NCBI GenBank assembly: GCA_031261345.1 | Contig: JAISKC010000063.1 | Span: forward strand, 7,490 to 71,489 | Length of the DNA: 64,000 nucleotides | Origin: Eubacteriales Family XIII. Incertae Sedis bacterium | Lineage (GTDB): Bacteria; Bacillota; Clostridia; Peptostreptococcales; Anaerovoracaceae | Direction: 5' to 3' | Shown here: one piece after another, positions 13,861-57,483 of the stretch | How positions within the stretch are numbered: the first letter of the stretch is position 1 | Layout: the number at the start of each line of letters is the position of its first letter | Position numbers and translations under genes: made by a program | The notes under the pieces: model-generated | The model's input: the letters and a program-made list of their open reading frames with translations, nothing else | Told to the model about the DNA's origin: nothing | Database searches by the model: none

Positions 13861-13861
13861 C

Positions 13862-16719: not shown

Positions 16720-17147
16720 AGTATTTCCCTTATTATGGAATAGCATTATATATTTTTTTCCTTTGCTATTCTCTTTTAGCTTTAACATATAGTATATAAT
16801 AGATACATTGGATTAGCATTTTCCACTATCTCTTTGATGATTTCAGTAAAGCTCTAGCCACCAATCTTCCCAAGTCATTTGAAAAAAATCCGGCTAAGAA
16901 ACCTTTTCTTCATACACTGATACACACCTCCCTTGTTACGCGATGGATTATATGCTATCACACGCCCTTGTAATACAATAATGTTTACAGAAACAACACG
17001 CATTGCATTATGCTGTTTCAATGCTTAAATTGAAATTCTGATATTCAACATACATTCAAACCGATTCTGCTTATTATATCAAAATGTTCATATAAATAAA
17101 ATACGAAAAAATCCGTTCTTCAACCAGTGCTAATCTTGATTATACAA

Positions 17148-17173
17148 TGACTTCCATAAAGCCACGGAAATAC
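17148..17173 (+). repeat. partial copy of the GACTTATAGCCACGGAAA motif, at the composition step
   Basis: atgacttccataaagccacggaaata here versus atgacttatagccacggaaata at 19641-19662. Confidence 0.4.
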
Positions 17174-17207
17174 TACTCCAGAAAAAGCAATTATGTATTA
17201 AGATTTT

Positions 17208-40437: not shown

Positions 40438-40471
40438 ACAAAAAGGCACGGCCCCATTAAGAAGCCGTGCC
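40438..40471 (-). terminator. rho-independent terminator of surface-protein gene A
   Basis: On the minus strand, GGCACGGC-11 nt-GCCGTGCC is followed by TTTTTGTTG. It lies 60 nt after the stop at 40531. Confidence 0.7.
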
Positions 40472-40530
40472 CATTGCGGACATAACCCGCAATCCATCAG
40501 TTATAACTGAAATTGTTGCAATCCGTCTCG

Positions 40531-43500
40531 CTAGTTTGCCATCGCGCCGCTGTAGTCTATCTTCTCGTTGTCGTCATCCACCTTGTTTCTTAGCTTGTAG
40601 ACGATGAACGTTACGATATGGGCGATGAACACGATGCCGACAAAGAGCGTCCACTTGTTGATCCAAACCATCGGAAGGCTCAGGTCGTCGAAGACGAAGA
40701 AGGTTATCGGCGTCAGTATACCGAAGACAATCGTCAGGACTCTCGCGATGAACGCATTCCTTTCCTTTCTCACCACTTCGGTGCCCGCGTATCTCTCGAT
40801 GTCATTGTCCTCAAATCTGCGCTTCGCAATCTGCCAGACGACCATAAGTATCGAGATGATGATGGCAGCCATCGACATGATCAGCGACAGTAGGCTCCAC
40901 GCACCCTTTCCAAGGAAATTGCCGAGCGGCACATTGCCGTTTGCAAGGTCCGAGAAGAGGTTGCCGGTCTGCGACTCAAGCTTCTGCTGAGTAACCGCAT
41001 TGAAGCCCTCAAAAGCGGTGGCCGTGTTCGTAGGTGTCTCTGAAACGTTCGCATTCGGGCTATTGCCCGCTGATGGGTTCACCGGCGGATTGGTCTCGGG
41101 CTCGGGAGTCTCAGCAATGACTTCATCCCACTGTGCAGTCAGTGTCAAATCCCCTGCCGGCATGGTCAGGGCAGCACCCGATTGATACGTTCTGCCATTT
41201 GAGCCGTTCCAAGAAACAAACTCCCAACCCGTGCGTGCGGGTACCTGCGAAGATACCGTATATGAAGCACCCTCAAGCAGGTCTGAAGTTCCGCTCGGAA
41301 GTCCGGTCACGCCCGTTCCACCCGAAACGTAGCTGACCGTATAGGTATCGGGCTGCGGCGGCTCCACTATCACCTCATTCTGTTTCCAGACAGCGTAGAG
41401 ATTCACATTTTCAGTAATGGTAAGGCTTTCTCCGCCGGTATAAGTCGCCGACGTAGCTGTCGCGCTCTTCGACCAACCAAGGAACTCATGTCCATCACGA
41501 GCAAGTGTATTCACACCCGCCACGGTAGCTTTGCCGCCGTGAATATACGTCTCCGCCTTAGGTGCCTCACCCGACGTGTGAGCGTTTCCATCATACGTTA
41601 CGGTATGACTATCAAGTCCATAGACCGCGTAGAGTGTCGTATTATCCGTGATGGTGAACTCCTTCGTTCCGTCCACTTTGTAATTCGGTGTAGTAGCATT
41701 GGCTTTTGTCGCCCAGCCGGTGAACACACGGTGACTCTTCGTCGGCAGTGGCGTGAACAGCACACTCACCTTATCGCCGTGGTGATAATCCACCTTGCTA
41801 TCTGTAGGTACAGAGCCAGTGCCCCCATTAGCCTTGTATGTTACTGAGTAATTGTCGATTTTCCATTGTGCCACCAAAGTGATGTTGTCTTCGACCGATG
41901 TGATTGTAGCCTTGTTCGCGTAATTGCCCGTGCCATAGCTCGCGCCACCGTCTGTGTATGTCGCCAGCCAACCGTTGAAGTGATAGCCGACCTTCTCGAA
42001 AACATTCGCGGGAATCTTATAGCTCTTGCTGTGTTCTACATTGAGTGCAGAAGTCATAGTGCCGGCTGTCTTCCCATTTCCATCGAATGCAACGGTGTAT
42101 TTGTGCGGAATCCACTTCGCATAAAGCGATAGAGTCGGATCCCCATTTGCACCTTGAACTCCATTCGCGATATTGAGCACAGTACCGATGTTCGCTGCAC
42201 CAAATTCCCATTCAGTGCCGGCAGGACTATTTACATGCCAACCGTCAAATGTATAACCGGTGCGCGTCGGCTCAATGTCCGGAGCACCAGTAATGGTGGC
42301 ATCATATTCGGCACTTTCCTCCTTGGTAGCAAGAAGAGAATCGTCGTTTTGGTCGGTGTAGAGCGTTTCGCCGAGATAATGATAACTGATTTCTACATCC
42401 TTTGCTTCCCACTGAGCTGTGAGCGTCACAGAACCAACCGTGTCAGCTCCTGCAAGCGTTGAATAGGTCGGGTTCAATTCAGATGTATAAACGTTTCCGT
42501 CAAAGTCCGTATCACCGCGATTCGTGAGCTTCCATCCCTTGAAATCATACCCTGGCTTGGTGATCTGAGTTGCTGACGGGAGGAAAACCGTATCGCCCCA
42601 ATGTACAAACGGCACGGGATTGGTGACAGAGCCATCAAACGTTCCGCCATCTGGCAGATACCACACGGTGTATGAATATTGCGACAGCGAAGCCGTAAAT
42701 GTCACAGCCTCGGTGATCTTTGCCTGTAGCAACTGCGTACGATTCATCGGTGTTCCTGCATTGATAACGGTATTGCTACCATCGTTCAGCGTGACTGCCT
42801 TATTCGCCGTCCACACTACTGTTGCCGGATTGTATCCAGTGATAGTGTTTACACCTTGGAATATCGGCGCAATGGTAGGTGACGGCTGTTGATTGTAATT
42901 TTTGTATTCACTTGTCTGAGGAAATGTTGCACCTGTGCCCGCTTTATATGTCACCTCAGAAGCTGCCTTGAGACCTACTCCTGCAAGCTGAGTCTGAGGT
43001 GAGCTGGAGCCTACCGTAAATTCATAAGTGGCACTCGCATGACTTGTAGAGATATTCGACTGAAGAATATCCATATGCCAATCATAATCGGGGCTTGAGC
43101 CTGAAGACCTGTCACTCGGTGTATTTGGAGTAAAACCTCTCTGTACATCGTCGTTGTATATTGTCAAGGTGTAGTCTCCCGCCTTGAGATAATATGGAGT
43201 GCCGCCGGAGGTGAGGGAGGCAAAGTCGCCATTGTCTTCCACATCTATATTGAGCAGACTGATGGTATCTCCCGCAAGAGTTGCACTCACACCGCTCAAT
43301 CCTGTGAATGATTCTCCGGCATCTTTAATTCCATCCACGTCGAGATCGTTGAAGACGTTGCCTATTACACCAGCGGTAGCCGGCTCTGCGGCAAGTATCG
43401 AACCAAAGGTCCATACGCTTGAATCGCCGTCAGCTTGTTGCCATCCTTTCTGGTAACTGCGCCAATAGTTGGGCTCTCCCATAGGTGCGTTGTTGTCAAC

Positions 43501-46500
43501 TGCCATTTCAAAGGTTGTAAAGCCTTTTGATCCCGATTCTCCGACTTTAGCAATCTGTCTGTTTGCCACGAACTTGACCATCGTTACATTTTCATATGTG
43601 TCAACCAGTCCTTCTATAGCACTTGCATCTACCCATGGTCCGTCATATGGGACCCAGTCCTTATCTACATTCCCTCCATAATTGGTTGTGCTTGATGTAC
43701 TAGTACTATAGTATGTATCAAAGCCGTCAAGACTTATCGGTCCAGTAAGATTGCCGGTCCATTGCGGCTCAGAAACCACCACATTCCCTGATGGATTTGT
43801 GATTTCCTTATTGTTGAAATAGTGATCGTAATTTATGCCTTCCTTGGGGATGGACAGATAGATTTCAGATCCCTCATAATAACTTCCCGTAGATGTATTT
43901 TCATACTGTAGCCAGATCTCTGCATTGGCATCGGGTGTAACCGGTGCCACGGTTGCAGCAGTACCATTATATGTATAATAAGGACCTGTATCGCCTACGG
44001 TGCGAATACCCAAAGAGATGGTCAACCCTTGTTTCTGCAATACGGCGATATTTTGGCTGCTGGTCGCCGCTGCCAATTTGTATGCAGTGCCTTTCCCTGC
44101 CCAATTATTGGCATCTGCAACCGATGTGCCACCGCCATCAGCTGTTGCAGACTTTCCAAGGTCATATAATACAATATCTTTGGCAAACAACTCCGGATAT
44201 TTCGCTACTGCACTCGATACATTGGCGGAAAATTTGAGAGTGAAGACATTGCTGACAAATCCATTACCGGCCATGTTACTACTGGCATTGGCGATAATGT
44301 CATTTGGATTATATACAGCCAAATGATACGTAGTCCACGGGACACTATTGACCAATTTGGTTTCTGAACCTTTTAATTGTAATTTGAAAGGCGTATCAAC
44401 ATGATTGCCCGCTTTTGAAACTACCCGAATGCTATCCACATCCAAATCAAGTCCTTCAGGAAGTGAAATATAGACATCCGGATCTTTAATGTCCTGACTG
44501 GTTCCGACATATCTATCGGTAGCGTTATATACGCTGGTAAAATACATCGTATCATCAGGGAAAAATGTTCCGTTTTCGGTCGTTGAGCTTTCACTGTGGC
44601 TGGCAACCGTAGTGGTATCGCCAGCGCGAACATTGTCCCACCTTATAACCGGAGTCCCTGTTGATGTGTAGGTGTTACCCAATGCATCAGTAATGGTCAG
44701 TGTCACAGGACCACTTTTGCCGTTTTGGAAACGACCGTAAAAGAATCCGCCCATGCTGACATAAGTGTTGTTATACCTGCCAGGACCTAATTGTGGCTGC
44801 GTAAATGTCATATCAAGAAGGTATTCATCTGCTGCGAGCCCAAGGAACTCCGCCCGAATCATGCTGGCACCCAATCCGGAGTTTATTGCACCCACCGGCA
44901 GTGTGCTGGTTCCTGACTTCGTTATTGTCCTCCCTTTGTTTGTATGTGCAACCAAATCTTTGATTCGATTGTTGTTCGCAAGGCCATTATTCGTGGAATA
45001 GGGAATGCTGATTGCTCGGATTGCCAGATTTGGGCTGAATGTATATTCATAGACGGCATTGGGTGCAGCAATTGAGCCCCAATTTTCAATATAAAATTGA
45101 CCTAAGGCATAGTCATATGGATAGTCTCCATTTTCGTTCAAATCACGACGTGCATTATTTAGCAGCCCCCAAATGCCAAGTTTAACATTTGGCGTTGACG
45201 GCGTGACAGTATAACTTGTATTGCGCAAAGGATGTACCTGTGGGTCGCCCCCTAAGGTTCCCGATGTTTCCACATATGTACCATTGAAGACAATGCCCTG
45301 GCCCCATTTAAATTGAGAGTTATCAATGGTTACGCCGTCCCAGTACAATCTGAATTGCGTATCTGCTGCGATAGTTGTCTTGTCCATTGTAAAGGTTATC
45401 GTGCGATTTGATGCATCATGTACAACTGAAAGGTGTGAGCCATATGTTGCACTTGTTGTATCGGTTGGATGATTGAATCCATCGATATAAAATCCCTTAT
45501 ATGTCACGCCTTCCGGATAGGTTATTGTCATGACGGAGTGATCGGAAAAGTGTCTTCCAACAGCCCCGTGACCTAATTTAAATACGGTTGAGAATGCGGC
45601 AATCGTGCCCTTGGTTGCATCCTCTGTATTTACAGTTCCCGCAAGAGATAGAGTATCGCCGGTAAAAGGTGTCACAGGAATTCCTGTTACAGTTGTACTC
45701 AAATGATCGCTAAAGTTTTTATCGCCGCTCTTCATGGTGACGGTAATGTCATTCATGGAAGCAGTTGTAGCGTTATGGGGGAGAAGCATTTCGTCCAATT
45801 CGAGGGTGAGCACCATGGCAACTTGGGTTACATTGGAATTGAACGTATAGACAACTTTCCCATCGTAATTTCGATATGATTCTTCGGTGTTATAATAAGG
45901 CTTGTTATACCCTGTTATGAGTTGAGATGCCCAAGCGGAGCCATCAAAAGCGGTTAGATCCGCACTTGCTATCATGGCATCGTCCTGAGCTGATAGACCC
46001 AGTTTGCCAACGCCATCAATATCCGCCGTAGTTTCTTTTGCCGTGTACTCGGTGATTTTATATCCCTTTGGAATTATTATTTCAACTTTTCTTTCCTTGT
46101 CTGAACCCTGCCCAGAAAACTTGGCTGTGATTTCTATCTGCTTTTGTCCGAAAGTTAATGGCCAAGTAATGGCATTATTAATGCCGGAGTCATCCACATC
46201 TACAAATTCTGGAGTGGAAACCTTTAGTGTTAGACTGTCATCAGAATCACCCTGAGAGAGTGAGCCAATCTCACCCTGTGTGGATTCCGGCTCGGAGCCC
46301 ACGTTCGCGCCTGTGCCCTCACTGTCATTGCGGGCTATGTGCCCCAACGGGGTATGACCCGCAATCCATTGTTCGTTTGGAAGCGCGTCCTCCGGCAGGT
46401 TTGTCTCCGTTTGATTTTCGGGTATTGCTACCTCTACCGTCTTAGTGACCTCATCATTTACCGAGGGGTCTACAGAATACCCCCCCCCCATTGGAAGAAT

Positions 46501-46603
46501 CTGCCATTACAAACTGTGGCATCACAGCTACGAATAGCATAATTACGGTCAAAATTACCGCCAGTACCCTCTTTTGATTTCTAATACTCCCTAAATTAGA
46601 CAT
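40531..46603 (-). CDS. giant surface protein A (InlB-B/Listeria-Bacteroides-repeat protein), reading frame broken at a G10 tract as sequenced
   Basis: - Track ORF 46454..46636 supplies the RBS (GGGGAGGA), ATG 46603 and a signal peptide (KRVLAVILTVIMLFVAVMPQFVMA/DSS).
- The 1986-aa ORF 40531..46491 has no signal peptide, and the two frames meet inside the G10 tract.
- Domains: SdrD-B-like VIGNVFNDLDVDGIKDAGE and 6 Flg_new-type repeats (GYDFKGW, GYTFDGW, GYHFNGW, VFTGW, HEFLGW, WEFVSW).
- It has three C-terminal TM segments and no LPXTG. Confidence 0.8.
46480..46489 (-). repeat. homopolymeric G10 (coding strand) in gene A
   Basis: Counted directly: 10 consecutive C on the plus strand. Confidence 0.95.
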
Positions 46604-46791
46604 TTTCTTGTCCTCCCCTGTTTCGTCGCAAAACACGACAATTACATAAAATTAATTTTTATTGGATTTTATTCGACATCAAAATGTAGAACGAATCCCC
46701 AAGTTCTATATATACAGACACTCCTCTCTCAAAAAACACGTCCATGTAATCGCACTTTCAATAAAGAAAATTTATTTTGATTACTATAATT

Positions 46792-46964: not shown

Positions 46965-47042
46965 AGCAGTGACGTGTTCACTGTCTGGGCTGGTCGAAAG
47001 ACCCTGGTCCACCCCATGGCGGAGAATGTCTCCGCCTTTTTT
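46965..47042 (+). ncRNA. candidate structured leader or small RNA upstream of a DUF3800 gene stub
   Basis: Possible promoter TTGACT (46926) with a 17-nt spacer to TAAGGT. Hairpins CAGTGA-cgtgt-TCACTG (46967-46983) and GGTC-GAAA-GACC (46992-47003). It ends in the terminator hairpin GGCGGAG-aatgt-CTCCGCC followed by T6 (47018-47042). Confidence 0.3.
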
Positions 47043-47190: not shown

Positions 47191-47877
47191 CTATGCGGTT
47201 CGCAAAAGGGGAGCTGTGTGGACGGCCTCGAACGCGTCCGCCACGCTGGCGAAAACCGACACCAGTTTCGGGTCGAAATGGGTGCCCGAGCCATCTATGA
47301 TGATGCTCTTCGCTCTCTCAGCAGACATCGGCTCCTTGTAGGGACGCTTTGAAATCAGAGCATCGTAGACATCTGCTATAGCCATGATCCTGCCGAGCAA
47401 TGGGATTTCATCTCCGGAGAGCCCGGCGGGATAGCCGCTGCCGTCCCACTTTTCATGGTGAGTGGCGGCGAAAACCTTCGCATTTTTGAGAAAGTCGCTC
47501 TCACTCGTTTGCTCCTCAATCCGCTCAATCACCTCAACGCCGATAGTCGGGTGCTTCTTCATCACATTGAATTCCTCTTCCGTCAACTTCCCCGGCTTCT
47601 TGAGAATCGTATCGCTGATGGCGATCTTGCCCACATCGTGAAGTTGCGCCGATGGCAGGAGAAACTGCGAATCCCAACAGCTGATTTCATCGCAGTACAC
47701 GCCTTGCCTCTTCATTCCATCCAGCAGCACTTCAAGATATTTCACGGTTGCACAACTGTGATCGCCCGTATTGCTATCACGGAATTCCACCATCTCCACC
47801 AGCGTAGTTATTATTGCCTTCTGCAGTTCCATCACCTGTGCCTTCAATTTCTTTTCCGTAATATTCATAGTGTTCAT
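47191..47877 (-). CDS. stand-alone HD-GYP domain protein (cyclic-di-GMP phosphodiesterase family)
   Basis: HDVGKIAI and HHEKWDGSGYPAGL motifs. GGGGG RBS. Confidence 0.85.
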   Translation of the reverse strand: MNTMNITEKKLKAQVMELQKAIITTLVEMVEFRDSNTGDHSCATVKYLEVLLDGMKRQGVYCDEISCWDSQFLLPSAQLHDVGKIAISDTILKKPGKLTEEEFNVMKKHPTIGVEVIERIEEQTSESDFLKNAKVFAATHHEKWDGSGYPAGLSGDEIPLLGRIMAIADVYDALISKRPYKEPMSAERAKSIIIDGSGTHFDPKLVSVFASVADAFEAVHTAPLLRTA

Positions 47878-48024
47878 AGCATTACCCCCATGTTTCTTGA
47901 CGTTGTTCCTGTTCTGTTTCTGTGATTTAATAAATTTATATCAAAACGAATTGTCGCGGACTACACCCCAAGATTTTTTTTTAAATAAGTAATTTTGGGG
48001 TGATGTTTGCGACAGACATAGCGG

Positions 48025-48030
48025 TATAAT
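48025..48030 (+). promoter_or_regulatory. TATAAT box 6 nt upstream of the LuxR-family ATG (possible leaderless mRNA)
   Basis: cggTATAATaaaaacATG with no Shine-Dalgarno sequence. Confidence 0.35.
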
Positions 48031-48036
48031 AAAAAC

Positions 48037-50592
48037 ATGGTTACACAATCGACAATAAATGTGCCGGTAATTCCGGACAATAGCCTTGTTTTGCTCGACA
48101 GGCCACGCATAGACGGCCTCTTGTCTTCCGTGCTCAGTAGCCCCGTGGCGACCATCGTTGCAGGATCGGGCTATGGCAAAACTGAGGCGGTCTACTCATT
48201 TCTACGGAAACAGGATCTCACGATCATCTGGGTGCAGGTATCGGAGCACGACAACGAAATGACAAGATTTTGGGGCGATTTCTCCGGTGCCATTTTTTCG
48301 GCTAACAAAGATCTCTCAAAGCAAATGTTAGATATGGGCTTTCCGTATGACGGCATATCGTACAACAAATATGCCGACGCTGTATCGGACGCCTTGACCG
48401 TTACGAGAAATTACGCCCTCGTGATTGACGACTTTCACAATATTCACAATCCCGATATTTTGAAGTTTTTCGAGAGGGGTCTTCAGATGCCTCTTGCAAA
48501 TATGCACCGCATATTCATATCGAGGGAAAACCCGAGTATCGTAACTGCAAACTACCTACTTACGGATCATTTCGCCCATCTAAACGAGGATGATTTGCGG
48601 TTCACAAGAGATGAAATGAAACAGCTTTTTGCCCTTCAAGGGTTGAAACTTTCGCCAGATACAATAGAGAAAATCTATTCCGACACTGACGGCTGGGTCT
48701 TTGCCATACAGCTCATCGGCTTGTTTTTCAAAAGGAATCCCGGGCAGATAGGCTATGCAGTCGATGCGATGAAGTCGAATGTATCCAAGCTGATCGACAC
48801 GGAAATCTTCTCTGAGATTCCCGAAAAATTACAGCATTTTCTGATCAAAATGTCTCTGATAAACCACCTTTATCCCGATTTGCTCCGTGGGCTTGATGAC
48901 GGCGAGGCATGCATGAACGAGCTCCGCAAAATGGACTCCTTTGTCAGGTATGACGACTATTTGAACACCTATCGTATCCATCAGCTGTTCCTTGACTACC
49001 TGAAGGATAAGCAGCGGCTTTTGTCCGAGCAGGAGAAACGCAGCACGCTGGATGTTGCGGCAAACTGGTGTCTTCTTCAAGACGACATTTCCGAGGCCAT
49101 TCACTACTACGAAGAGCTCGGCGACTATGACCGGATTGTGGAACTCGCATACAAGCAGTCGATGCTCTTGCCGCAGGGTGTCGGCTCCTACATATTGAAC
49201 ATTTTTCGTAATGCGCCTGCCGAAGCGTTTGAGCGAAACGGAACGATGACGGTCGTATTCGCCAGGCTTTTGATAGCTCTCGGTCACATCAAAGAAGGCG
49301 AAAACTTTATCACATCTACGATAGAAAGGTATGAAAAATTGCCTGAATCTGGCCACAAGGATCGCATCCTCTGTGGGCTATACAACAACCTCGGGTTTCT
49401 CGGTTTGATAAAGAGTCCGACCACGTCGGAATATGATTTTGCGGCTCACTTTATGCGTGGCGATGAATACTTCAGAAAATGCGACATCAAGGTGCTCGGG
49501 GCGGTTCGGTCTGTAAATCTCAGCCCTTACATTACTAGGGTCGGGAAACCGGAGGCGGGCGGACCGGAAAAATTCATCGAAGCGGTCTCGGAATCAATCC
49601 CATATATCTCACATTCCATGAATGGCTGCATGTACGGCATGGACGATCTGGCACGCGCCGAGCTGTCGTTTTTCCGAGGTGAGCTTGAAAATTGCGAGCA
49701 GTTTTCGTTCAGTGCCCTCTACAAGGCGAGGGAACGCAGTCAATACGAAATCGAAAATCGCGCCCTGTTTTTCCTCCTGAGAACAAATCTGGCGAACGGA
49801 AAATATGAGAAGGTCCGCTCCATTCTCTATCAAATCGAGGCTCAACCGGAGATGTCCGACTACGCGACAAAGTATTTCATGAAGGATATACTGACGAGCT
49901 GGTTTTATGCACAGATTGGTCACACCGAGCGTATGGCCGACTGGATTACTAAGGACTTTGAGGAGTCAGAGGACAACTATCTGACGCGCGGACTGGAATT
50001 TTTCACAAAAAACAAATTCTACATGGTCGAAAAACGTTACCACAGACTGCTCGCAATTCTGGAAAGTCAAGACACCGAATTGGGCATCGGCTCACTCCTC
50101 TACGGAAAAATCGGAATCATGACGATGAAGGCAATCTGCCTCTATCACCTCAAGGAGCGCAAGGCGGCACTCAGGGCCTTCGAGGAAGCCTACACGCTGG
50201 CGATTCCAAACGCCCTCGACATGATTTTCATTTCAATGGGCAACGACATGCGCGTCTTGAGTGGGTACGCGCTGAAGAACGCCTGCAACATTCCTAGGGA
50301 CTGGCTGGAGACGATAGGGCGAAAATCATCCACCTGCGCAAAGCGGTATGCTCACATCAGATCCAACTTTGACAGGGACGAGGAACTGAGTAATGAAGTG
50401 AACCTATCGAGTAAGGAACTCGAGGTTCTCACGGATTTGGCGCACGGACTGTCCAGATCGGAAATCGCAACCGCACGAAACATTTCCATCAACACGGTCA
50501 AGACCATGCTGCCCCTCATCTTCCGGAAACTCGACGCGAACAGCACAATAGACGCCATACGAATAGCGGTCAAAAGCGGAATTGTGAAGTGA
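48037..50592 (+). CDS. MalT-like large ATP-binding LuxR-family regulator
   Basis: N-terminal P-loop AGSGYGKTEAV and Walker B ALVIDDFH. Central helical/TPR-like region. C-terminal LuxR HTH LSSKELEVLTDLAHGLSRSEIATARNISINTVKTM. Confidence 0.85.
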   Translation: MVTQSTINVPVIPDNSLVLLDRPRIDGLLSSVLSSPVATIVAGSGYGKTEAVYSFLRKQDLTIIWVQVSEHDNEMTRFWGDFSGAIFSANKDLSKQMLDMGFPYDGISYNKYADAVSDALTVTRNYALVIDDFHNIHNPDILKFFERGLQMPLANMHRIFISRENPSIVTANYLLTDHFAHLNEDDLRFTRDEMKQLFALQGLKLSPDTIEKIYSDTDGWVFAIQLIGLFFKRNPGQIGYAVDAMKSNVSKLIDTEIFSEIPEKLQHFLIKMSLINHLYPDLLRGLDDGEACMNELRKMDSFVRYDDYLNTYRIHQLFLDYLKDKQRLLSEQEKRSTLDVAANWCLLQDDISEAIHYYEELGDYDRIVELAYKQSMLLPQGVGSYILNIFRNAPAEAFERNGTMTVVFARLLIALGHIKEGENFITSTIERYEKLPESGHKDRILCGLYNNLGFLGLIKSPTTSEYDFAAHFMRGDEYFRKCDIKVLGAVRSVNLSPYITRVGKPEAGGPEKFIEAVSESIPYISHSMNGCMYGMDDLARAELSFFRGELENCEQFSFSALYKARERSQYEIENRALFFLLRTNLANGKYEKVRSILYQIEAQPEMSDYATKYFMKDILTSWFYAQIGHTERMADWITKDFEESEDNYLTRGLEFFTKNKFYMVEKRYHRLLAILESQDTELGIGSLLYGKIGIMTMKAICLYHLKERKAALRAFEEAYTLAIPNALDMIFISMGNDMRVLSGYALKNACNIPRDWLETIGRKSSTCAKRYAHIRSNFDRDEELSNEVNLSSKELEVLTDLAHGLSRSEIATARNISINTVKTMLPLIFRKLDANSTIDAIRIAVKSGIVK

Positions 50593-50617
50593 AGCCATTG
50601 GATAGTCGTTTTCTCCA

Positions 50618-51787
50618 TTAGGCGTCGCCGGAATAGTTGCCTATCACAAATGACCTTTCCAGAATGACGGACTTATCGTCCCTGTTTGGAAGCGTACACC
50701 TTAGGAGATATTCCCCATCATGTTTCTGACCGACAAGCCTGTCCAGCTCAGTGCTCACAGTGGCTTCGTCGCCTGAAAAAACCACGGCACCATCCGCCTC
50801 GGTTACTATTTCCCAAACCTGCGTCCCATCACCTTCCAGAAGATTCACAGCTTCAAATCCCTGTGGATTGATATGACCACATTCACAATCATCGGAGATA
50901 AGGAGAATTTCACGCCCGCCCGAATCAACCAAAATTCCAGTCGCAGCGTCCTCTGAATTACTGAGTGATAGACCCGCAAATGCGATGCCGGAGACAACGA
51001 CCATTGTCGCTATCAAACCAACTACGAAATTCCATATCCGCGGCTTCCCTGCGGCAGGCAACGCCTTACCATCGATTGCGCCCATCCATTTCTGCGCAAA
51101 CAAATCCATACTTTCGTCCGGCAGGCTGTTCATCGCCTTGAGCCGTAGCGACTTGCCCATGACCGTGGACGTGGCAGGAAGACCAGCTCCCGCGCCGCCC
51201 AGACCCACGCCGAGCAATGTGCCGATATTTTCACCTTCCTGTGTAAGTTTTTTCTTCAACATCATTCTCGCCTTCGTAATATTTGAGGAAACTGACTTTT
51301 CCGAGATTTTCTGAACTTCCGCGATTTCTTTGTAACTCAACCCCTCATAGTAATACATGATGATGGCATCACGCTTCGCCGCGGAAAGCGAAGACACATA
51401 TCCGTATAGCTTTTCACTCAAGGCAGAATCCTGTGCATACGCTTCAGGCAGAAATTCCCGATTTTCCTCTTCGAGGACGATGTCTTCATCTTCTATGTCA
51501 ATTTCCTTCTGTTTGCGCGCGTGCGTCCTGAATATCGCATAGCACTCATTTCTGACAATCCGTTCAATCCAGACATTGATAGCAACCGGATCCTTGAGCC
51601 TCCGAATGTTCTTGTGCATCTTCAAGATGGCCTCTTGTGCAGCATCTTCAGCGTCCGGATAATTTCCCATGACAGACAGCGACACGAACATCATGTCGCG
51701 CTGCTTCGCAAGGCACAGATCCTCAAATGCCTTCAAATCACCCTTGATGGCCTTCCTTGCCAATTCAACGATTTCCGCTTTAACCAA
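50618..51787 (-). CDS. sigma-70-family (ECF-like) sigma factor fused to a TM segment and extracytoplasmic C-terminal domain
   Basis: Region 2 DAEDAAQEAILKMHKNIRRLKDPVAINVWIERIVRNEC. Region 4 AIIMYYYEGLSYKEIAEVQKISEKSVSSNITKARMMLKKKL. TM segment IWNFVVGLIATMVVVSGIAFAGL followed by about 110 aa. TTG start. Confidence 0.75.
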   Translation of the reverse strand: MVKAEIVELARKAIKGDLKAFEDLCLAKQRDMMFVSLSVMGNYPDAEDAAQEAILKMHKNIRRLKDPVAINVWIERIVRNECYAIFRTHARKQKEIDIEDEDIVLEEENREFLPEAYAQDSALSEKLYGYVSSLSAAKRDAIIMYYYEGLSYKEIAEVQKISEKSVSSNITKARMMLKKKLTQEGENIGTLLGVGLGGAGAGLPATSTVMGKSLRLKAMNSLPDESMDLFAQKWMGAIDGKALPAAGKPRIWNFVVGLIATMVVVSGIAFAGLSLSNSEDAATGILVDSGGREILLISDDCECGHINPQGFEAVNLLEGDGTQVWEIVTEADGAVVFSGDEATVSTELDRLVGQKHDGEYLLRCTLPNRDDKSVILERSFVIGNYSGDA

Positions 51788-51918: not shown

Positions 51919-54900
51919 TCATGCAATCGCTCTATTTCCCTCTTCTTCGTCCTCCGCGTATTCATGTTTCCTGACTTTGTAAACAACGAGCACTACGATA
52001 TGCAAGATGAAGACTATGCCGACGAAGAGCGTCCACTTGTTGATCCACGCCATCGGCAGGCTCAGGTCGTCTAGGATAAGCCAAACAATCGGTGTCAATA
52101 TGCCGAGGATAATAGTGGCAACCTTCAGCATCTTTCCACGCCTGCGACGTTCTTCCTCCTCATCGCGAACCCCGCCATCCCGTGCGTAGCCCGTGAGCTC
52201 ATCTTCATTATCTTCACGCCTCTTGCGGGCGATAGCTCCAACAATCAACAGTATCGAAATAACGACAGCCACCAGGGACATGATGAGGCTGAGTAGACTC
52301 CAAGCATTACTGGAGAAGAAATTCCCGAGCGGAACGTTGCCGTTTGCGAGGTCGTTAAATATATTGCCCGTCTGTGCGTCATACTTCGCCTGATCCGATG
52401 TAACAGGTGAAATCTCATTAGTAACCGTTGGAGGATTCGCCGGTGGGTTCGCTTCAGGCTCCTTTGGCTCCACAATGACCTCTTCAGGTTCGGGAGTGAT
52501 ATCCATAACACGATTCACAATCGGAGGATTGACGACCGGCGGCTCCACTATCACCTCATCCTTCTGCCAAACGGCATAGAGCTCAACATCCCGCGTCAGC
52601 GTGACGACATTTCCCTTCGGGTGGCTCACAACGCCGGAGACTGCACCCTCAGCCCAACCGAGGAATGAGTAACCATCCCTTGCGAGCGTGTTCTGCCCAT
52701 TCACTATGACTTGACTTCCGTGACTGAGAGTAACAGCGTCCGGAGCCTCACCTGATGTATGTCCATTGCCATGATAAGTCAGGCTGTGGCTATCGGGCCC
52801 ATAAACCGCATAGAGTATCGCATTTCCAGTAATATTGAAGCTTTTCGTCCCCTCCACCGTGTAGGTCGGCGCAGTAGCTGCCGCAGTCTTCGCCCAACCG
52901 AGGAACACGCCATGATCCTTCACAGGCAGTGGCGAGAACTGAACCTCCACATTATCGCCATTATGGTAGTCAACCTTGCTATCCGTAGGCACAGAACCCG
53001 TGCCCCCATTGACCTTGTAGACAACACTGTAATTGTTGATTGCCCACTGCGCAGTCAATGTGATATTCTGTGTTATCCCATTTATCGTCCCAATCGTGCC
53101 ATATGCGCTAGGCTCACATGGCGATCCGCTATCTGTAAAGGTAGCTATCCAACCCGTCAAATGATGATTTTGTAATGAAAACCCGTTTGCCGGTATATTG
53201 TAGTTTTTCCCATAGGCCACATCGCCGGGAAGCATATATCCAAATCCACCATTACCCTCAAAAGTAACTACATAGCGCAGCGGCTCAAGACTTGCAGTGA
53301 ACGTGATATTCTCCGTGATCTTCGCCTGAAGCACCTGATCGCGGGTCAATACAGAGCCTGCACCTTTGACCGTATTATTGCCATCGTTAAGCGTTACAGC
53401 CTTATTTGCTTTCCAAACAACCGTGGTATAGTCATAACCCACTTCTACTCCTTGAGCTACGTTGACTACAGGAACGACGGATGCCGTAGGCTGCTGATTG
53501 TGATTTCGATATTCACTTTCGGTAGCAAACGAAGCTCCCGTTCCGGCCTTATACGTAGCGAGTGCAGCATCATGCAAGCCGACGCCCACGAGTTCCGTAG
53601 ACAATGTAGTGTTGGAAACCGTGAAATTGAACGTGGCGGAAACATGAGTATTGGACACATTTCCCTGCGGCACATCCATGTACCAGTGATCCACAGCACT
53701 TCCTCCTACGCCGGTGGTATTTGACCTCGTTCCCGATGTTGTAGTCGTGAAGCCCCTCTGTATACTCTCATCAAAAATCGTGAGCGTATACTCCCCCACT
53801 TTGAGATAGTAAGGTGTCAGCCCGTTTGAGCTAAGCGAGGCAAAACTGCCATCTGGATTCACAACAATATTCAAGAGCGAAATCGTCCCTGTTTGGGAAG
53901 TGAGCGTCGCACTCACATGGTCAAGATTTGTAAAGTTCTCTCCTGCATCTAGGATTCCATCAGAGTCCTTATCATTGAAGATTTTGCCCTTGACGCCAGC
54001 CATAGCAGGCTCCGCCGCCAAGACAGAACCGTAAACCCAACTACCTTCGCCGGCAGCCGTCCTCCAACCCTTCTGATAACTCCGCCAGTAATCAGTCTGC
54101 CCAAGCTGCGCATCGGAAGCAACCGCGACATCAAATGTAGTTTCGCCCGAGGACCCCTCTAGCCCTGACGCCGCTATTGTTTGATTCGCCACAAACTTGA
54201 CCATCGTTACATTGGCGAAATCGCCTGAAAGGTCGGAAACCTGCGCGGCTGTAAGCCATTCGCCCGCGTAGGGTTTCCATGCATTGATTACTTCTTCCGC
54301 CGAGCCACTTTCGGGAGCAGGATTCGTCGTTCCCGAAGTGCTCACGCTATAGGTCGCCGTGAAGCCCGGAAGAGTGAGCGGACCGGTCAGCAAGGCTGTC
54401 CAAGCCGGTGCTTCATTCGTCTCGACTCCATATGGATTCGTCGTCTCAATATTGTTGAATATTCGATTGTAGCTCACGTTCTTCTTGGGAATAGGCAAAT
54501 AAATTTCCGTGCCTGGATAGTATGTATCGCCAGAGGTGTTTTCATACTTTAGCCAAACCTCGGCCGGCCGGTCGGGAGTAACAGGAGCCACTGTGGCATC
54601 ACTGCCATTGTATGTGTAATATGGATCAGTGTCGCCTGCCGCACGAATGCCGAGGTAAACATTGAGCCCGGGCTTTTGAACCACGGCGATGTTGTTGGAA
54701 TATTTCGCACCAACCAGATTGTAGCCGGTGCCATGCCCAGCCCAATCGTGGGTATCCAGCAAAACGCAATCCTCTGAACCATATGTTGCATTCACGGCAG
54801 ATGTTCCCAAATCAAGTAGGACGATATCCTCTGGGTCCAGCTCGGGAAAAGCGGTGGCGGCACTTGATACCTTAGCGGTGAAATATAGTGCTGATTCACC

Positions 54901-57483
54901 CGGGTTCCCTGTCATGTTCTCGGCTTCAGATATAATATCCTGATGTGCAGGTGCCCTAAAGTGATATGCTATCCATTCAACACCATTTATCAGTTTCGGC
55001 TCAGAAGAGCCAAGAAGTGTCAGCGGAAATTCTGCATCGCCATGATTGCCGGCAGACGAAACGGCTCTTGCACTATTCACATCCAAGTCAATCCCTCTTG
55101 GTAGTGCAACATAAATATCGGGGTCAACTATGTCAGCACTGTCACCATTCCACGTACGACCGCCATAAAACCATGAATTAATATACATCGTGTCGCCCGG
55201 ATAAAATGATCCCGTATTTGTGCCATCTGGATTATGACTGGCTACGGTATACATAGAACCGGCACCCTTGTTTGATGTAGCTTTGCTCGTCGTTGCATAA
55301 CCGGTTGCAAGCACACCTTCATCCTTGTCCTTGATGGTTAGATTGACGGTTCCGGCCTGACCGTTTTGAAGCCTTCCATAATACGTTCCGGCACCATAAG
55401 TCCAATATTCATCGTTGCCGCTTGCATAGACCGATAGACGGTCCTGTGTAATAGTAAGGTCGGTCAAGAATTCATCTTCGGCTAGCCCCAAATCTTCCGG
55501 CGTGAGTGCGTAAGCATAGTTGGTCCAAGGTAGTGTGAAAGACGTTGAATACGTTATTGTTCGTGTTGCACCGGATTTCGTCTTCGCATGTGCAACGACA
55601 TTTCTGAAGTGAGAGTCATTATACCCTCCCGGAATCCTAATCCCACGTACGGCAAGTGCATCATCAAAAGTATAGAAGTATGTGATATCCTCAGCAATAC
55701 TCGGGCCATCGTTCATGACAACGAGCTGCCCCAGACCATAGTCGTGAGGATAATCCCCGTTCCAGTTGAGATCGCGCCTTGTTCCATCGCCAGATTCTAT
55801 TCGTATGTTGACATTCGGTTTCTGAACGGTCACCCAAGTTACCACCGGACCATAATTTTGGACTACTGGATGACCTGACTCAAAGCCAGAGTTGGCGACA
55901 TATTCGGCAGGAAAAACCAAAGTATCATTCCATTTTATTAGGTCGTTATCTACTGAGCCAGTCCAATATAAGACAAAAGTATTTCCGTAACCAATAAGGA
56001 CGTTTGTATAAGAGAAAGTCACAGTTCGTGCCGTGGGATTGTCCTCTACAAGTAGATGTCCGTTGGCGTAGCTGCCGGTCGTTCCGCCTTGTTCGTTTAT
56101 TCCTTCCCAAAATCCCTTGAACTCAAGACCCTCAGGATAGTGAAATGTAAATGTTGCCGAATCTGATAAGAAATCATCAGAAGACCAATTCTGATTGATT
56201 ACAGTAAATCTTATGGAAAATTGCGGTATTTCACCTTTATCCTCATCCACATCCACAATCCCAGCTACGGTCGGGGTCTGGTCCTCATTGAATTGATTCA
56301 CCATCTGAAACTGCATCATATTTGTAGAAGTTGCCACCAGTTCATCTGACAAATTTGCGGCTCCACTCACAAGATCCACTGTAATGGCATCCAGTACGGC
56401 GGTATCGGTAGCTCTCGAAAGCATAGCGTACTGAAGATCGAGGGTAAGTGTCAACACGATGTGATCGCAGTTTGAATTGAAAGTGTAAGTCACTTTTCCA
56501 TCGGAATTATGAGGCTGCAAATCATTCGGGCCATATCCTGCATACCCCAAAACCACTTGATCTGCCCAAGATCCGCCATCAAGCGCTGTAAGAGATGCAC
56601 TTGCAACCTTGGACTCCGACTCCGAAGACAAATTTATCTTAGATACCCCTTCGATTTCAGGAGTACTCTCCTTCGCCGTGTATTCGATTATCTTGTATCC
56701 ACGTGGCACATTGACAGTGATGATTCGATCCTTATCCGTGCCCTGCTCCGAAAAGTCAGCTGTGATACGAATCTGCTTATTGCCACTTTTCCATGGCCAG
56801 TCGATTGCGTTTGATATACTACCGACTTCAACAAAAGCCGGATTGGAAACCTCGAATGTAAGATTATTACCATTACCATCGGTTTGACTCAAAGGGGCAA
56901 CATCATCACCAAGCACATCAATGTCCAGTTCCTGCACTATGGATTGGTCTTTATCATTGTCATACTGCACTTCACCCACTGGAATAAGGTCTTCAAATGC
57001 CGCTTCAAACGTGGTGTCCCTCGATACGACAAATTCACCGATAGGAGCATAGCCCTCTGTTACTGCCAGCCTTTCGTCAGCCGTGTACATAGTTTTGCTT
57101 TCATCTTGGGTATCTATCCAGCCAAGGAATCGGCTGTTTTGGGATTCGGGGATGAAGTCCAAAATGACTGTTTCTTCATCGCTTTCAGATTGCGAATCTT
57201 GGTCCGCAATGACGGATTTTACCTCTTCATCTGTCGGGAGAATGTCCATCGGCAAGTTTACTTCTACTTGTCCTTCAGGTATCGCAACTGCCTCCGTCTT
57301 AATAATATTGTCATTTACTGTAAATCTTAGAGAATATACCCCCCCCCCATTGGAATTATTTTCCAGTTCGTTATCTGTTGCCATAGCAAACTGTGGTAAC
57401 ACAATGCCTAGCAACATTACTATTGTCATTGTGATAGCCAGCCACCGTTTGTGACCCAAAGTACGATTTGTATTAGTATTCAT
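51919..57483 (-). CDS. giant surface protein B (paralog of A), intact
   Basis: - ATG 57483 is preceded by GGGGGGAA, and the signal peptide is KRWLAITMTIVMLLGIVLPQFAMA/TDN.
- The N-terminal ~1000 aa are collinear with A.
- Domains: SdrD-B-like GKIFNDKDSDGILDAGE and 4 Flg_new-type repeats.
- It has the same C-terminal 3-TM anchor (NVPLGNFF..AWSLLSLIMS). Confidence 0.85.
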   Translation of the reverse strand: MNTNTNRTLGHKRWLAITMTIVMLLGIVLPQFAMATDNELENNSNGGGVYSLRFTVNDNIIKTEAVAIPEGQVEVNLPMDILPTDEEVKSVIADQDSQSESDEETVILDFIPESQNSRFLGWIDTQDESKTMYTADERLAVTEGYAPIGEFVVSRDTTFEAAFEDLIPVGEVQYDNDKDQSIVQELDIDVLGDDVAPLSQTDGNGNNLTFEVSNPAFVEVGSISNAIDWPWKSGNKQIRITADFSEQGTDKDRIITVNVPRGYKIIEYTAKESTPEIEGVSKINLSSESESKVASASLTALDGGSWADQVVLGYAGYGPNDLQPHNSDGKVTYTFNSNCDHIVLTLTLDLQYAMLSRATDTAVLDAITVDLVSGAANLSDELVATSTNMMQFQMVNQFNEDQTPTVAGIVDVDEDKGEIPQFSIRFTVINQNWSSDDFLSDSATFTFHYPEGLEFKGFWEGINEQGGTTGSYANGHLLVEDNPTARTVTFSYTNVLIGYGNTFVLYWTGSVDNDLIKWNDTLVFPAEYVANSGFESGHPVVQNYGPVVTWVTVQKPNVNIRIESGDGTRRDLNWNGDYPHDYGLGQLVVMNDGPSIAEDITYFYTFDDALAVRGIRIPGGYNDSHFRNVVAHAKTKSGATRTITYSTSFTLPWTNYAYALTPEDLGLAEDEFLTDLTITQDRLSVYASGNDEYWTYGAGTYYGRLQNGQAGTVNLTIKDKDEGVLATGYATTSKATSNKGAGSMYTVASHNPDGTNTGSFYPGDTMYINSWFYGGRTWNGDSADIVDPDIYVALPRGIDLDVNSARAVSSAGNHGDAEFPLTLLGSSEPKLINGVEWIAYHFRAPAHQDIISEAENMTGNPGESALYFTAKVSSAATAFPELDPEDIVLLDLGTSAVNATYGSEDCVLLDTHDWAGHGTGYNLVGAKYSNNIAVVQKPGLNVYLGIRAAGDTDPYYTYNGSDATVAPVTPDRPAEVWLKYENTSGDTYYPGTEIYLPIPKKNVSYNRIFNNIETTNPYGVETNEAPAWTALLTGPLTLPGFTATYSVSTSGTTNPAPESGSAEEVINAWKPYAGEWLTAAQVSDLSGDFANVTMVKFVANQTIAASGLEGSSGETTFDVAVASDAQLGQTDYWRSYQKGWRTAAGEGSWVYGSVLAAEPAMAGVKGKIFNDKDSDGILDAGENFTNLDHVSATLTSQTGTISLLNIVVNPDGSFASLSSNGLTPYYLKVGEYTLTIFDESIQRGFTTTTSGTRSNTTGVGGSAVDHWYMDVPQGNVSNTHVSATFNFTVSNTTLSTELVGVGLHDAALATYKAGTGASFATESEYRNHNQQPTASVVPVVNVAQGVEVGYDYTTVVWKANKAVTLNDGNNTVKGAGSVLTRDQVLQAKITENITFTASLEPLRYVVTFEGNGGFGYMLPGDVAYGKNYNIPANGFSLQNHHLTGWIATFTDSGSPCEPSAYGTIGTINGITQNITLTAQWAINNYSVVYKVNGGTGSVPTDSKVDYHNGDNVEVQFSPLPVKDHGVFLGWAKTAAATAPTYTVEGTKSFNITGNAILYAVYGPDSHSLTYHGNGHTSGEAPDAVTLSHGSQVIVNGQNTLARDGYSFLGWAEGAVSGVVSHPKGNVVTLTRDVELYAVWQKDEVIVEPPVVNPPIVNRVMDITPEPEEVIVEPKEPEANPPANPPTVTNEISPVTSDQAKYDAQTGNIFNDLANGNVPLGNFFSSNAWSLLSLIMSLVAVVISILLIVGAIARKRREDNEDELTGYARDGGVRDEEEERRRRGKMLKVATIILGILTPIVWLILDDLSLPMAWINKWTLFVGIVFILHIVVLVVYKVRKHEYAEDEEEGNRAIA
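57339..57348 (-). repeat. homopolymeric G10 (coding strand) in gene B, in frame
   Basis: Counted directly: 10 consecutive C on the plus strand. It encodes GGG plus the first base of the Val codon. Confidence 0.95.

What the first reader, a model, noticed from the sequence alone, without database searches (positions are those of the whole stretch)
46454..46636. G10 homopolymer splits giant surface-protein gene A between signal peptide and mature protein (phase-OFF state or homopolymer error)
A run of 10 G on the coding strand (46480-46489) lies 5 codons after the predicted signal-peptidase site (..PQFVMA/DSS).

- The upstream frame, with a good RBS and ATG 46603, reads ..ADSSNGGGVFCRPLGK and stops at 46454.
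- The 1986-aa frame starts inside the tract (MGGGYSVDPSVNDEV..) and has no signal peptide or RBS of its own.
- With G9 or G12 the two frames fuse to ..ADSSNGGGYSVDPSVNDEVTKTVEVAIPENQ.., which is collinear with paralog B (..NSNGGGVYSLRFTVNDNIIKTEAVAIPEGQ..).

This is the classic layout of a slipped-strand contingency locus. It would be notable for a ~6-kb adhesin-like gene in a Firmicute with about 50% G+C in this region.
Basis: seen in the sequence. Interest (0 to 1): 0.8.

Follow-up and report, generated by a model that had tools for sequence, protein, structure and literature searches.

The report
Poly-G switch in giant surface proteins
A run of ten G's just after the export signal of a 6-kb surface-protein gene puts it out of frame; four related genes in termite-gut Clostridia carry the same run at the same spot with other lengths, so it is most likely a slippage-driven on/off switch of a well-known kind, not a dead gene.

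Summary
A G10 tract (window 46480-46489, minus strand) separates a 49-codon ORF with an RBS and a signal peptide from a 1986-codon ORF. G9 or G12 fuses them into one 2023/2024-aa protein.

The main new result is comparative. Paralog B in the same window carries its own G10 at the homologous site (57339-57348) and is in frame. These are the only G/C runs of 7 or more in the 64 kb. Three further homologs from termite-gut Family XIII/Clostridia assemblies, 41-47% identical in protein, carry G8, G11 and G9 at the same site. All three are out of frame by one base and are otherwise open for about 6 kb.

Four-fold synonymous sites are otherwise largely randomised, yet the three Gly codons of the tract are GGG in all four genes aligned codon by codon. 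That points to selection on the DNA run itself.

The best explanation is a translational phase-variation switch by slipped-strand mispairing, in a small family of giant InlB-B-repeat surface proteins. It is laid out like the G-tract pilin genes of Bifidobacterium breve and like Neisseria pilC.

No reads were available. Whether gene A is really OFF in most cells, or the assembly miscounts the tract by one base, stays open.

Verdict: real feature, new member of a known kind, moderate interest.

The parts
46480..46489 (-). G10 homopolymer tract of gene A, the proposed slippage switch; out of frame at this length
   Evidence: G9 or G12 fuses the two ORFs; G10 stops translation after 49 codons.
46454..46603 (-). 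5' ORF of gene A. It holds ATG 46603, the signal peptide (codons 1-34, 46603-46502), DSSN, the tract, then 8 out-of-frame codons and a stop ending at 46454
   Evidence: The n-region has K/R, the hydrophobic core is VLAVILTVIMLFVAV, and VMA/D is the predicted cleavage site (read from the sequence; no signal-peptide predictor was run).
46612..46618 (-). Shine-Dalgarno-like GGGGAGG, 8 nt upstream of ATG 46603
   Evidence: read from the sequence.
40531..46491 (-). 1986-codon ORF of gene A (mature protein). From N to C: a family-specific region of about 1260 aa, Flg_new / InlB B-repeats, then a hydrophobic C-terminal anchor
   Evidence: Pfam: Flg_new 1.4e-41, Flg_new_2, and weak pAdhesive_6 and SdrD_B hits. 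It equals P0001 / MDR0854178.1.
40444..40472 (-). Terminator-like hairpin with a T run, just downstream of the gene A stop codon
   Evidence: 12-bp stem, 8 G-C pairs. Consensus match only.
57339..57348 (-). G10 tract of paralog B at the homologous site; in frame (ON) at this length
   Evidence: AAT GGG GGG GGG GTA TAT TCT reads NGGGVYS. G10 gives 1854 aa; G8, G9, G11 and G12 stop after 51-57 codons.
51919..57483 (-). Paralog B, an intact 1854-aa CDS with the signal peptide MNTNTNRTLGHKRWLAITMTIVMLLGIVLPQFAMA/T
   Evidence: It equals MDR0854182.1 and is 43% identical to A.
47191..51787 (.). Neighbouring regulator genes between A and B: HD_5 (HD-GYP-type) protein 47191-47877 (-), MalT/LuxR-type regulator 48037-50592 (+), and a sigma-70-family protein with a C-terminal extension 50618-51787 (-). 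This is context, not part of the switch
   Evidence: A MalT/LuxR gene and a sigma gene also sit next to the homolog in L001, and a sigma-like gene sits next to the homolog in L044/L045.

Best explanation
Gene A, paralog B and their close relatives carry a hypermutable poly-G tract in the first codons of the mature protein, right after the signal-peptidase site. These genes come from termite-gut Clostridiales Family XIII and related Clostridia.

**Proposed mechanism**
1. During replication the tract gains or loses a G by slipped-strand mispairing (inferred).
2. Translation starts at the upstream ATG and makes the signal peptide.
3. Tract length then decides the outcome. Either the ribosome reads on into the ~2000-aa surface protein (ON), or it stops 4-12 codons after the three Gly codons of the tract (OFF). 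This consequence is shown by translating each length.
4. In this assembly gene A is at an OFF length (G10; ON would be G9 or G12). Paralog B is ON (G10).

**Expected consequence (inferred).** Each paralog has its own tract, so a clonal population would hold cells showing different combinations of these giant InlB-B-repeat, membrane-anchored surface proteins. That is bet-hedging for attachment, or for escape from phage or host.
For: **Anatomy of gene A**
- RBS, ATG and signal peptide lie in one frame, and 1986 open codons lie in the next frame.
- A single base removed from the tract fuses them.

**Same tract at the same site in every clade member with readable DNA**

| Gene | Tract | Position | State | In-frame length |
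|---|---|---|---|---|
| A | G10 | window 46480-46489 | OFF | G9, G12 |
| B | G10 | window 57339-57348 | ON | G10 |
| L001 (P0002, MAG Hs463_bin135) | G8 | L001:5624-5631 | OFF | G9 gives 2303 aa |
| L002 (P0003, Clostridia bacterium MS499-83) | G11 | L002:1114-1124 | OFF | G10 gives 1957 aa |
| L046 (P0014) | G9 | L046:1589-1597 | OFF | G8 gives 2034 aa |

Sources.

**OFF genes are not decayed**
- Every OFF gene is exactly one base from an ON length and has no other disruption over about 6 kb.
- In L001, 123 codons are open between the tract and the annotated start. In L002, 73 codons are open.

**Selection acts on the DNA run, not only on the peptide** (A, B, L001 and L002 aligned codon by codon)
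- The genes are only 41-47% identical.
- All four share the same third base at only 14 of 187 invariant four-fold columns.
- Of 65 invariant Gly columns, exactly 3 are GGG in all four, and these are the three tract codons.
- Other Gly-Gly-Gly stretches in these genes are written with GGC/GGT codons, one including a single GGG; none forms a G run.
- GGG makes up only 10-19% of Gly codons.

**The tract is the exceptional run in its surroundings**
- It is the only G/C run of 7 or more in L002 and in L046.
- It is one of two in L001.
- The two tracts are the only such runs in the window.

**A likely third paralog.** P0016 (MDR0854564.1) has an accession in the same series as A and B. Its annotation has no signal peptide, and it starts about 9 residues after the tract site.

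**Experimental precedent for this layout**
- B. breve pilin genes have the Sec signal and the rest of the protein in two ORFs split by a G11/G12 tract. Tract length is heterogeneous within a culture (PMC9187656).
- Neisseria pilC has a poly-G tract in the signal-peptide-coding region (PMC13017665).
Against: - No reads, isolates or time series were available. Length variation within one gene in one population, and reversibility, were therefore not observed.
- All comparisons are between paralogs or orthologs that diverged long ago. No near-identical copy of gene A exists in the collections searched (cluster of one member; no close hit).
- All five sequences come from short-read metagenome, MAG or draft assemblies. 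G-tract lengths are known to be error-prone there (PMC9187656). The ON/OFF calls (4 of 5 OFF) may be partly artefacts.
- The conserved peptide [DN]S[SD]NGGG could also be under protein-level constraint.
- More distant family members lack the tract. These come from Coriobacteriia, Bacteroidota, Lachnospiraceae and other clostridial assemblies. The switch is therefore not essential to the protein family.
Confidence: 0.8

Rival explanations
1. Assembly or sequencing miscount. The genes are constitutively intact, and the out-of-frame lengths (G10 in A, G8, G11, G9 in the relatives) are one-base homopolymer errors of short-read sequencing or assembly. No biological switching occurs.
For: - All sequences are MAG, metagenome or draft contigs.
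- Illumina has documented trouble with G tracts, and database tract lengths can differ from the true major length (PMC9187656).
- Each OFF gene is off by exactly one base.
Against: - It does not explain why a pure G run of 8-11 is kept at the same site across 41-47% protein identity when synonymous sites are otherwise largely randomised.
- A tract long enough to be miscounted in four of five independent assemblies is also long enough to slip in the cell.
- Paralog B, with the same G10 in the same assembly, is in frame.
Confidence: 0.1
2. Recoding rather than mutation. RNA-polymerase slippage or programmed ribosomal frameshifting at the G run yields full-length protein from a fixed out-of-frame template.
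For: - Long homopolymers can cause transcriptional slippage (general knowledge).
- A re-framing mechanism was once considered for the B. breve G-tract genes.
Against: - The correction needed differs between genes: remove one G in A, L002 and L046, add one G in L001, none in B. A single programmed shift of fixed direction does not fit.
- I did not look for a downstream stimulatory structure. The terminator scan listed only weak G-T-wobble 'hairpins' made by the tract itself.
- In B. breve, tract-length heterogeneity was measured on chromosomal DNA, and strains engineered to in-frame tract lengths showed pilus-like structures.
- Some leaky slippage by RNA polymerase on top of the DNA switch cannot be excluded.
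Confidence: 0.05
3. Pseudogene. Gene A is a decaying paralog inactivated by a frameshift, and the G run is incidental.
For: - A is split.
- An intact paralog (B) exists 5 kb away and could make A dispensable.
Against: - There is one lesion only, followed by 1986 open codons.
- The same single-site lesion, and nothing else, is seen in three other genes from other assemblies.
- The lesion sits in a tract that is itself conserved.
Confidence: 0.03
4. Protein-level constraint only. The conserved N-terminus [DN]S[SD]NGGG of the mature protein is functional (for example a flexible or processing motif), and the G run is a by-product.
For: The peptide motif is conserved in all five genes.
Against: - Gly can be written with four codons, and GGG is the least or second least used (10-19%).
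- None of the other 62 invariant Gly columns is GGG in all four genes aligned.
- A peptide constraint cannot explain out-of-frame lengths.
Confidence: 0.02

Closest known systems
Bifidobacterium breve UCC2003 sortase-dependent pilin genes bbr_0113 and bbr_1889 (G-tract replication-slippage switch; PMC9187656)
   Same: - Gram-positive gut commensal.
- The gene for a secreted surface protein is split into a first ORF with the Sec signal and a second ORF with the rest.
- The two ORFs are separated by a G tract of about 11-12.
- The second ORF has no active translation start of its own.
- Tract length sets ON or OFF.
   Different: - Different phylum (Actinobacteria).
- Different protein: LPXTG pilins of ordinary size, as the first gene of a pilus operon.
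- Here the genes are ~2000-aa InlB-B-repeat proteins with a C-terminal membrane anchor. I saw no LPXTG motif on reading the C-termini; no motif search was run.
- Switching is shown by experiment there and only inferred here.
Neisseria gonorrhoeae / N. meningitidis pilC1 and pilC2 (poly-G tract in the signal-peptide-coding region)
   Same: - Two paralogous adhesin genes, each with its own poly-G tract at the 5' end of the ORF in the export-signal region.
- The tracts give independent frameshift ON/OFF switching (PMC13017665).
   Different: - Gram-negative pathogen and an unrelated protein (type IV pilus tip adhesin).
- The tract lies inside the signal peptide, not just after the cleavage site.
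Poly-G contingency genes of Campylobacter jejuni, and homopolymeric-tract switching in general (Orsi et al. 2010, PMC2831843)
   Same: - Intragenic G/C runs of about 8 or more in surface-structure genes.
- Length polymorphism between strains.
- A general pattern of homopolymeric tracts within coding genes used for gene inactivation (abstract only).
   Different: In Campylobacter the tracts are spread over dozens of unrelated genes in an AT-rich genome. Here one tract position is inherited within one gene family, and I saw no other long G/C run in about 100 kb of these genomes apart from one intergenic C8.
Gardnerella NanH3 sialidase homopolymer switch (bioRxiv 10.1101/2020.09.16.300947)
   Same: A Gram-positive-type commensal, in which the gene for an extracellular sialidase is reported to undergo slipped-strand mispairing (title and abstract only).
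   Different: The enzyme is unrelated. I did not read the details of tract base and position.

Membership tests
Slipped-strand (simple-sequence-repeat) contingency locus, translational type | Homopolymer or short repeat of hypermutable length (about 7-8 or more) inside the ORF, usually near the 5' end | tested here: met
   G10 at codon 39 of about 2023 in gene A. G8-G11 at the same site in four relatives.
Slipped-strand (simple-sequence-repeat) contingency locus, translational type | Repeat-number differences between copies or strains that move the ORF in and out of frame, with the ORF otherwise intact | tested here: met
   Five genes have lengths 10, 10, 8, 11 and 9; one is ON and four are OFF. 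Each OFF gene is one base from ON and open for about 6 kb. Caveat: this is between paralogs and orthologs, not between alleles of one gene.
Slipped-strand (simple-sequence-repeat) contingency locus, translational type | Conservation of the repeat itself beyond what coding needs | tested here: met
   Of 65 invariant Gly columns, only the 3 tract codons are GGG in all four genes aligned. The same third base is shared at only 14 of 187 invariant four-fold sites.
Slipped-strand (simple-sequence-repeat) contingency locus, translational type | High-frequency, reversible length change within a clonal population, with a matching change of phenotype | not testable with these tools
   No reads, cultures or expression data. 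No near-identical second copy of gene A in any collection searched.
Slipped-strand (simple-sequence-repeat) contingency locus, translational type | The product acts at the cell surface or in interaction with host, phage or environment | tested here: met
   Signal peptide (read), Flg_new / InlB B-repeats, and a C-terminal hydrophobic anchor (read). Prediction only.
Programmed ribosomal frameshift site | A fixed shift direction conserved among homologs, at a slippery site with a stimulatory element | tested here: not met
   The correction needed is one G fewer in A, L002 and L046, one G more in L001, and none in B. No search for a stimulatory structure was run.
Pseudogene | Accumulating disabling mutations (several frameshifts or stops, truncation) | tested here: not met
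   A single frame break at the tract, followed by 1986 open codons.
InlB B-repeat (Flg_new, PF09479) surface proteins | Significant matches to Flg_new repeats | tested here: met
   A: E 1.4e-41, 6 stretches. B: E 3.6e-17, 2 stretches. Both are above the gathering score.

The most novel reading that the evidence does not exclude
A lineage of termite-gut Family XIII (Anaerovoracaceae) bacteria may keep a multigene set of giant adhesin-like proteins, each gated by its own poly-G tract at an inherited position just after the signal-peptidase site. There are at least two, and probably three, per genome.

The paralogs have since fallen to about 41-47% protein identity. That would make the tract an unusually long-lived repeat switch, since such repeats are usually short-lived in evolution. 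It would give combinatorial surface variation in an insect-gut symbiont community, where I found no report of this kind of phase variation.

The same ~1200-aa N-terminal module occurs, without the switch, in termite-gut Bacteroidota, Coriobacteriia and Lachnospiraceae. The family may therefore have moved between phyla within this habitat and gained the switch once.
Probability: 0.6. Interest if true: 0.5.

Novelty: new member of a known kind. Interest (0 to 1): 0.45.

Why it matters
- **Annotation.** The genes are currently filed as N-terminally truncated proteins without signal peptides (P0001, P0002, P0003, P0014, probably P0016). The true products are about 40-180 residues longer and exported. 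Pipelines that split or shorten such genes hide both the export signal and the switch.
- **Biology.** If the switch works, these uncultured termite-gut Clostridia vary their largest surface proteins stochastically. That suggests strong fluctuating selection, from phage, from protist or gut-wall attachment, or from fibre binding. Homopolymer phase variation has hardly been looked for in this habitat.
- **Testability.** It can be tested directly with the existing read sets.
- **Mechanism.** Nothing new: the same design is known from Bifidobacterium, Neisseria and Campylobacter.

Tried and rejected
**Other copies of the same gene (led nowhere)**
- I looked for near-identical copies of gene A to compare tract lengths within one gene.
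- P0001 is alone in its 90% cluster.
- The exact-product look-ups for P0001 and for B found no record.
- The genome and metagenome scans returned no hit above 50% identity.

**Third paralog**
- DNA for P0016 and P0124 is not on record. Its state is inferred from the protein start only.

**False leads**
- P0039 (Anaerovoracaceae, 'EDSVNGGG...') looked like another tract. Its NGGG is written AAT GGA GGA GGA and lies in the middle of the N-terminal region, so it is not homologous to the site.
- More distant homologs have ordinary signal peptides and no run at the N-terminus. These include L003, L006-L043 and L044.

**RNA elements upstream of A or B**
- A whole-window Rfam scan for a riboswitch or other known RNA found only an unrelated small-RNA motif on the other strand.

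**Structure**
- A profile search of the N-terminal region against PDB sequences found nothing at E up to 0.1.

**Terminator-like hits inside the tract**
- These are G-T wobble artefacts of the run itself.

**Recent gene conversion between A and B**
- Considered as the source of the shared G10 and rejected. The flanks differ: A has G10+TATTCTGTAGAC and B has G10+TATATTCTCTAAG, and the upstream codons differ.
Full report
**1. The observation**

On the minus strand the window reads ...GTA ATG GCA GAT TCT TCC AAT GGGGGGGGGG TAT TCT GTA GAC..., with the ten G's at 46489-46480. Upstream lie a GGGGAGG Shine-Dalgarno-like motif (46618-46612) and ATG 46603.

This frame encodes MSNLGSIRNQKRVLAVILTVIMLFVAVMPQFVMA/DSSNGGG. 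It then runs out of frame through VFCRPLGK to a stop ending at 46454. The N-terminus has a basic n-region, a hydrophobic core and a VMA/D cleavage motif, so it looks like a Sec signal peptide. I read this from the sequence; no predictor was run.

The 1986-codon ORF 46491->40531 begins at an ATG formed by AAT plus the first G. It has no purine-rich RBS in front of it. Translating simulated tract lengths shows that G9 gives a single 2023-aa product and G12 a 2024-aa product. G7, G8, G10, G11 and G13 stop after 43-50 codons.

**2.

Paralog B (57483->51919, 1854 aa) reads ...AAT TCC AAT GGGGGGGGGG TAT ATT CTC..., that is NSNGGGVYSL. It has a G10 at 57339-57348 and is in frame.

These two tracts are the only G/C runs of 7 or more in the whole 64 kb. 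A first-order Markov model of the window expects 0.043 runs of 10 or more. None of 1000 simulations produced two.

The flanks of the two tracts differ. The shared tract is therefore not a recent gene-conversion patch.

**3. Relatives elsewhere**

The protein family is rare. There were 8 hits in the word-indexed search, and 113 clusters at E up to 0.001 (79 at 1e-30) among 1.84 billion representatives.

Named hits and metagenome contigs come largely from termite-gut material (record titles and MAG names). They include Family XIII, a 'Clostridia bacterium MS499-83', Lachnospiraceae, Coriobacteriia, Dysgonomonas termitidis and Candidatus Symbiothrix. By its NCBI protein accessions, the window itself is a contig of a Clostridiales Family XIII MAG.

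I could read DNA for three further members of the close clostridial clade:

- **L001 / P0002** (MAG Hs463_bin135). Signal peptide ...LSWAPTVAMA/NSDN, then G8 at L001:5624-5631. The frame stops after GGGLIA. With G9 the gene is one open frame of 2303 aa.
- **L002 / P0003** (BNUG01000025). ...MTTAAMA/NSSN, then G11 at L002:1114-1124. The frame stops after 7 more codons. With G10 it is one frame of 1957 aa.
- **L046 / P0014** (same JGI sample as L001). ...VPTSATA/DSSN, then G9 at L046:1589-1597. The gene is OFF. With G8 it is 2034 aa.

In each case the database protein starts at an internal or tract-overlapping ATG and lacks the signal peptide.

A sixth protein, P0016 (MDR0854564.1), has an accession in the same series as A and B, so it probably comes from the same MAG on another contig. 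It also lacks a signal peptide and starts about 9 residues after the tract site. Its DNA could not be fetched.

The five genes are 41-47% identical to one another.

More distant homologs have ordinary signal peptides and no run at the N-terminus.

**4. Is the G run selected as DNA?**

I aligned A (G9 form), B, L001 (G9 form) and L002 (G10 form) and threaded the codons onto the alignment.

- Of 187 invariant four-fold-degenerate columns, only 14 share the same third base in all four genes. These synonymous sites are largely randomised.
- Of 65 invariant Gly columns, exactly three are GGG in all four genes. They are the three consecutive tract columns.
- GGG is only 10-19% of Gly codons in these genes.
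- The other Gly-Gly-Gly stretches in these genes are written with GGC/GGT codons, one including a single GGG; none forms a G run.

The homopolymer is therefore kept for its own sake, not merely because Gly-Gly-Gly is needed.

**5. Mechanism**

*Shown.*
- A conserved long G run sits at one site.
- Its length differs between genes.
- Tract length alone decides whether the signal peptide is joined to about 2000 residues of surface protein or to 4-12 junk codons.
- There is no other damage in any gene.

*Inferred.* The length changes arise by slipped-strand mispairing at replication, they are reversible, and each paralog switches independently.

This is the standard translational contingency-locus design. 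The closest described cases are two:
- The B. breve pilin genes have the Sec signal and the rest of the protein in two ORFs separated by a G tract. G11 and G12 co-exist in cultures, and in-frame lengths are enriched in the mouse gut (PMC9187656).
- Neisseria pilC1 and pilC2 have poly-G in the signal-peptide-coding region (PMC13017665).

**6. Rivals**

- **Homopolymer miscount.** This could explain any one OFF call, and I cannot exclude it for gene A. It does not explain the conservation of the run. A tract that defeats sequencing polymerases is also expected to slip in vivo.
- **Programmed frameshifting or transcriptional slippage as the main route.** This is unlikely, because the correction needed differs in sign between genes. 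Some leakiness is possible.
- **Pseudogene.** This is contradicted by 1986 open codons and by the same single lesion in three other genes.
- **Peptide-level constraint alone.** This is contradicted by the codon test.

**7. Context**

The genes are chromosomal. The window also carries:
- arabinose and galactose utilisation genes;
- an ABC sugar transporter;
- hydrogenase maturation genes HypB, HypD and HypF.

Between A and B lie an HD_5 (HD-GYP-type) protein, a MalT/LuxR-type regulator and a sigma-70-family protein with a C-terminal extension. MalT/LuxR and sigma genes also flank the L001 homolog, and a sigma-like gene precedes the L044/L045 homolog. Transcriptional control probably acts on top of the switch.

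No known riboswitch or leader RNA was found upstream of A or B.

**8. Verdict**

It is a new member of a known kind: poly-G phase variation of a surface protein. What is new is the setting, namely a family of giant InlB-B-repeat proteins in termite-gut Clostridia, together with the retention of the tract across deeply diverged paralogs.

Confidence that the tract is a functional slippage switch is about 0.8. Confidence that gene A is truly OFF in most cells of the sampled population is lower, around 0.5 to 0.6. That needs the reads.

Noticed in passing
window 46986-47033 (+): Rfam DUF3800-XI RNA motif (RF02975), 59.5 bits against a gathering score of 37.8. It has a terminator-like hairpin at 47018-47036. 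It lies in the 590-nt gap between gene A and the HD-GYP-type gene, on the strand opposite to both. I saw no DUF3800 gene nearby among the ORFs I scanned.
   Followed up: no
window 40531-46491 and 51919-57483; loci L004-L047: The ~1200-aa N-terminal module of A and B has no Pfam family above threshold and no PDB relative by sequence. It is rare (113 clusters in 1.84 billion representatives). Its named hits come largely from termite-gut bacteria of at least three phyla (Bacillota, Actinomycetota, Bacteroidota). That suggests a habitat-specific, horizontally spread adhesin module.
   Followed up: partly
window 40531-40900 (C-terminus of A) and 51919-52300 (C-terminus of B): Both proteins end in a conserved motif, GNVPLGNF..AWSLLSLI. 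It is followed by about three hydrophobic segments separated by charged stretches. I saw no LPXTG sortase signal on reading; no motif search was run. The same tail is present in P0002, P0003 and P0005. This is an unusual C-terminal membrane anchor for InlB-B-repeat proteins.
   Followed up: no
L003:3499-3534 (P0004, Logan SRR32407040): The annotated start lacks a basic n-region. An ATG at 3499 followed by GGGG is out of frame by one base. GGGGG would give MGAAKRALGILLMLLLVFLSGEVAPLSA, a full signal peptide. This may be a one-base error or a short-tract frameshift.
   Followed up: no
L001:13206 (= L004:13269), C8 on + strand: This is the only other G/C run of 8 or more in the clade loci. It is intergenic, about 90 nt upstream of the start of the Uma2-family gene on the minus strand, in a region with a ~90-nt direct repeat. 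It could be a promoter-proximal tract.
   Followed up: no
L014:5770 (G8), L025:414 (G10), L018:10050 (C9): Other long G/C runs occur in distant homolog loci. The L014 run is in frame inside the homolog (..SYNLVGGGNSPEV..). L025 has an intergenic G10 about 5.5 kb upstream of the homolog. The L018 run lies near the contig end.
   Followed up: no
window 12000-18000: G+C drops to 32-35%, against 45-52% in most of the window. The two large ORFs here that I scanned (14734-16788) or that border the region (10837-12921) gave no Pfam hit and an M4 thermolysin-type peptidase, respectively. Possibly an acquired island.
   Followed up: no
window 46479-46489, 57338-57348; L001, L002: In four of the five genes the G run is followed directly by T, giving a GnT motif. 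Such motifs are reported to raise T-to-G substitution rates more than 1000-fold (PMC12344412; title and abstract only). That could lengthen the tract by substitution as well as by slippage.
   Followed up: no
window 38642-40198 (+): A DnaJ-domain protein with a C-terminal DUF6273 lies just downstream of gene A on the other strand, in a 38% G+C stretch with strong positive GC and AT skew.
   Followed up: no
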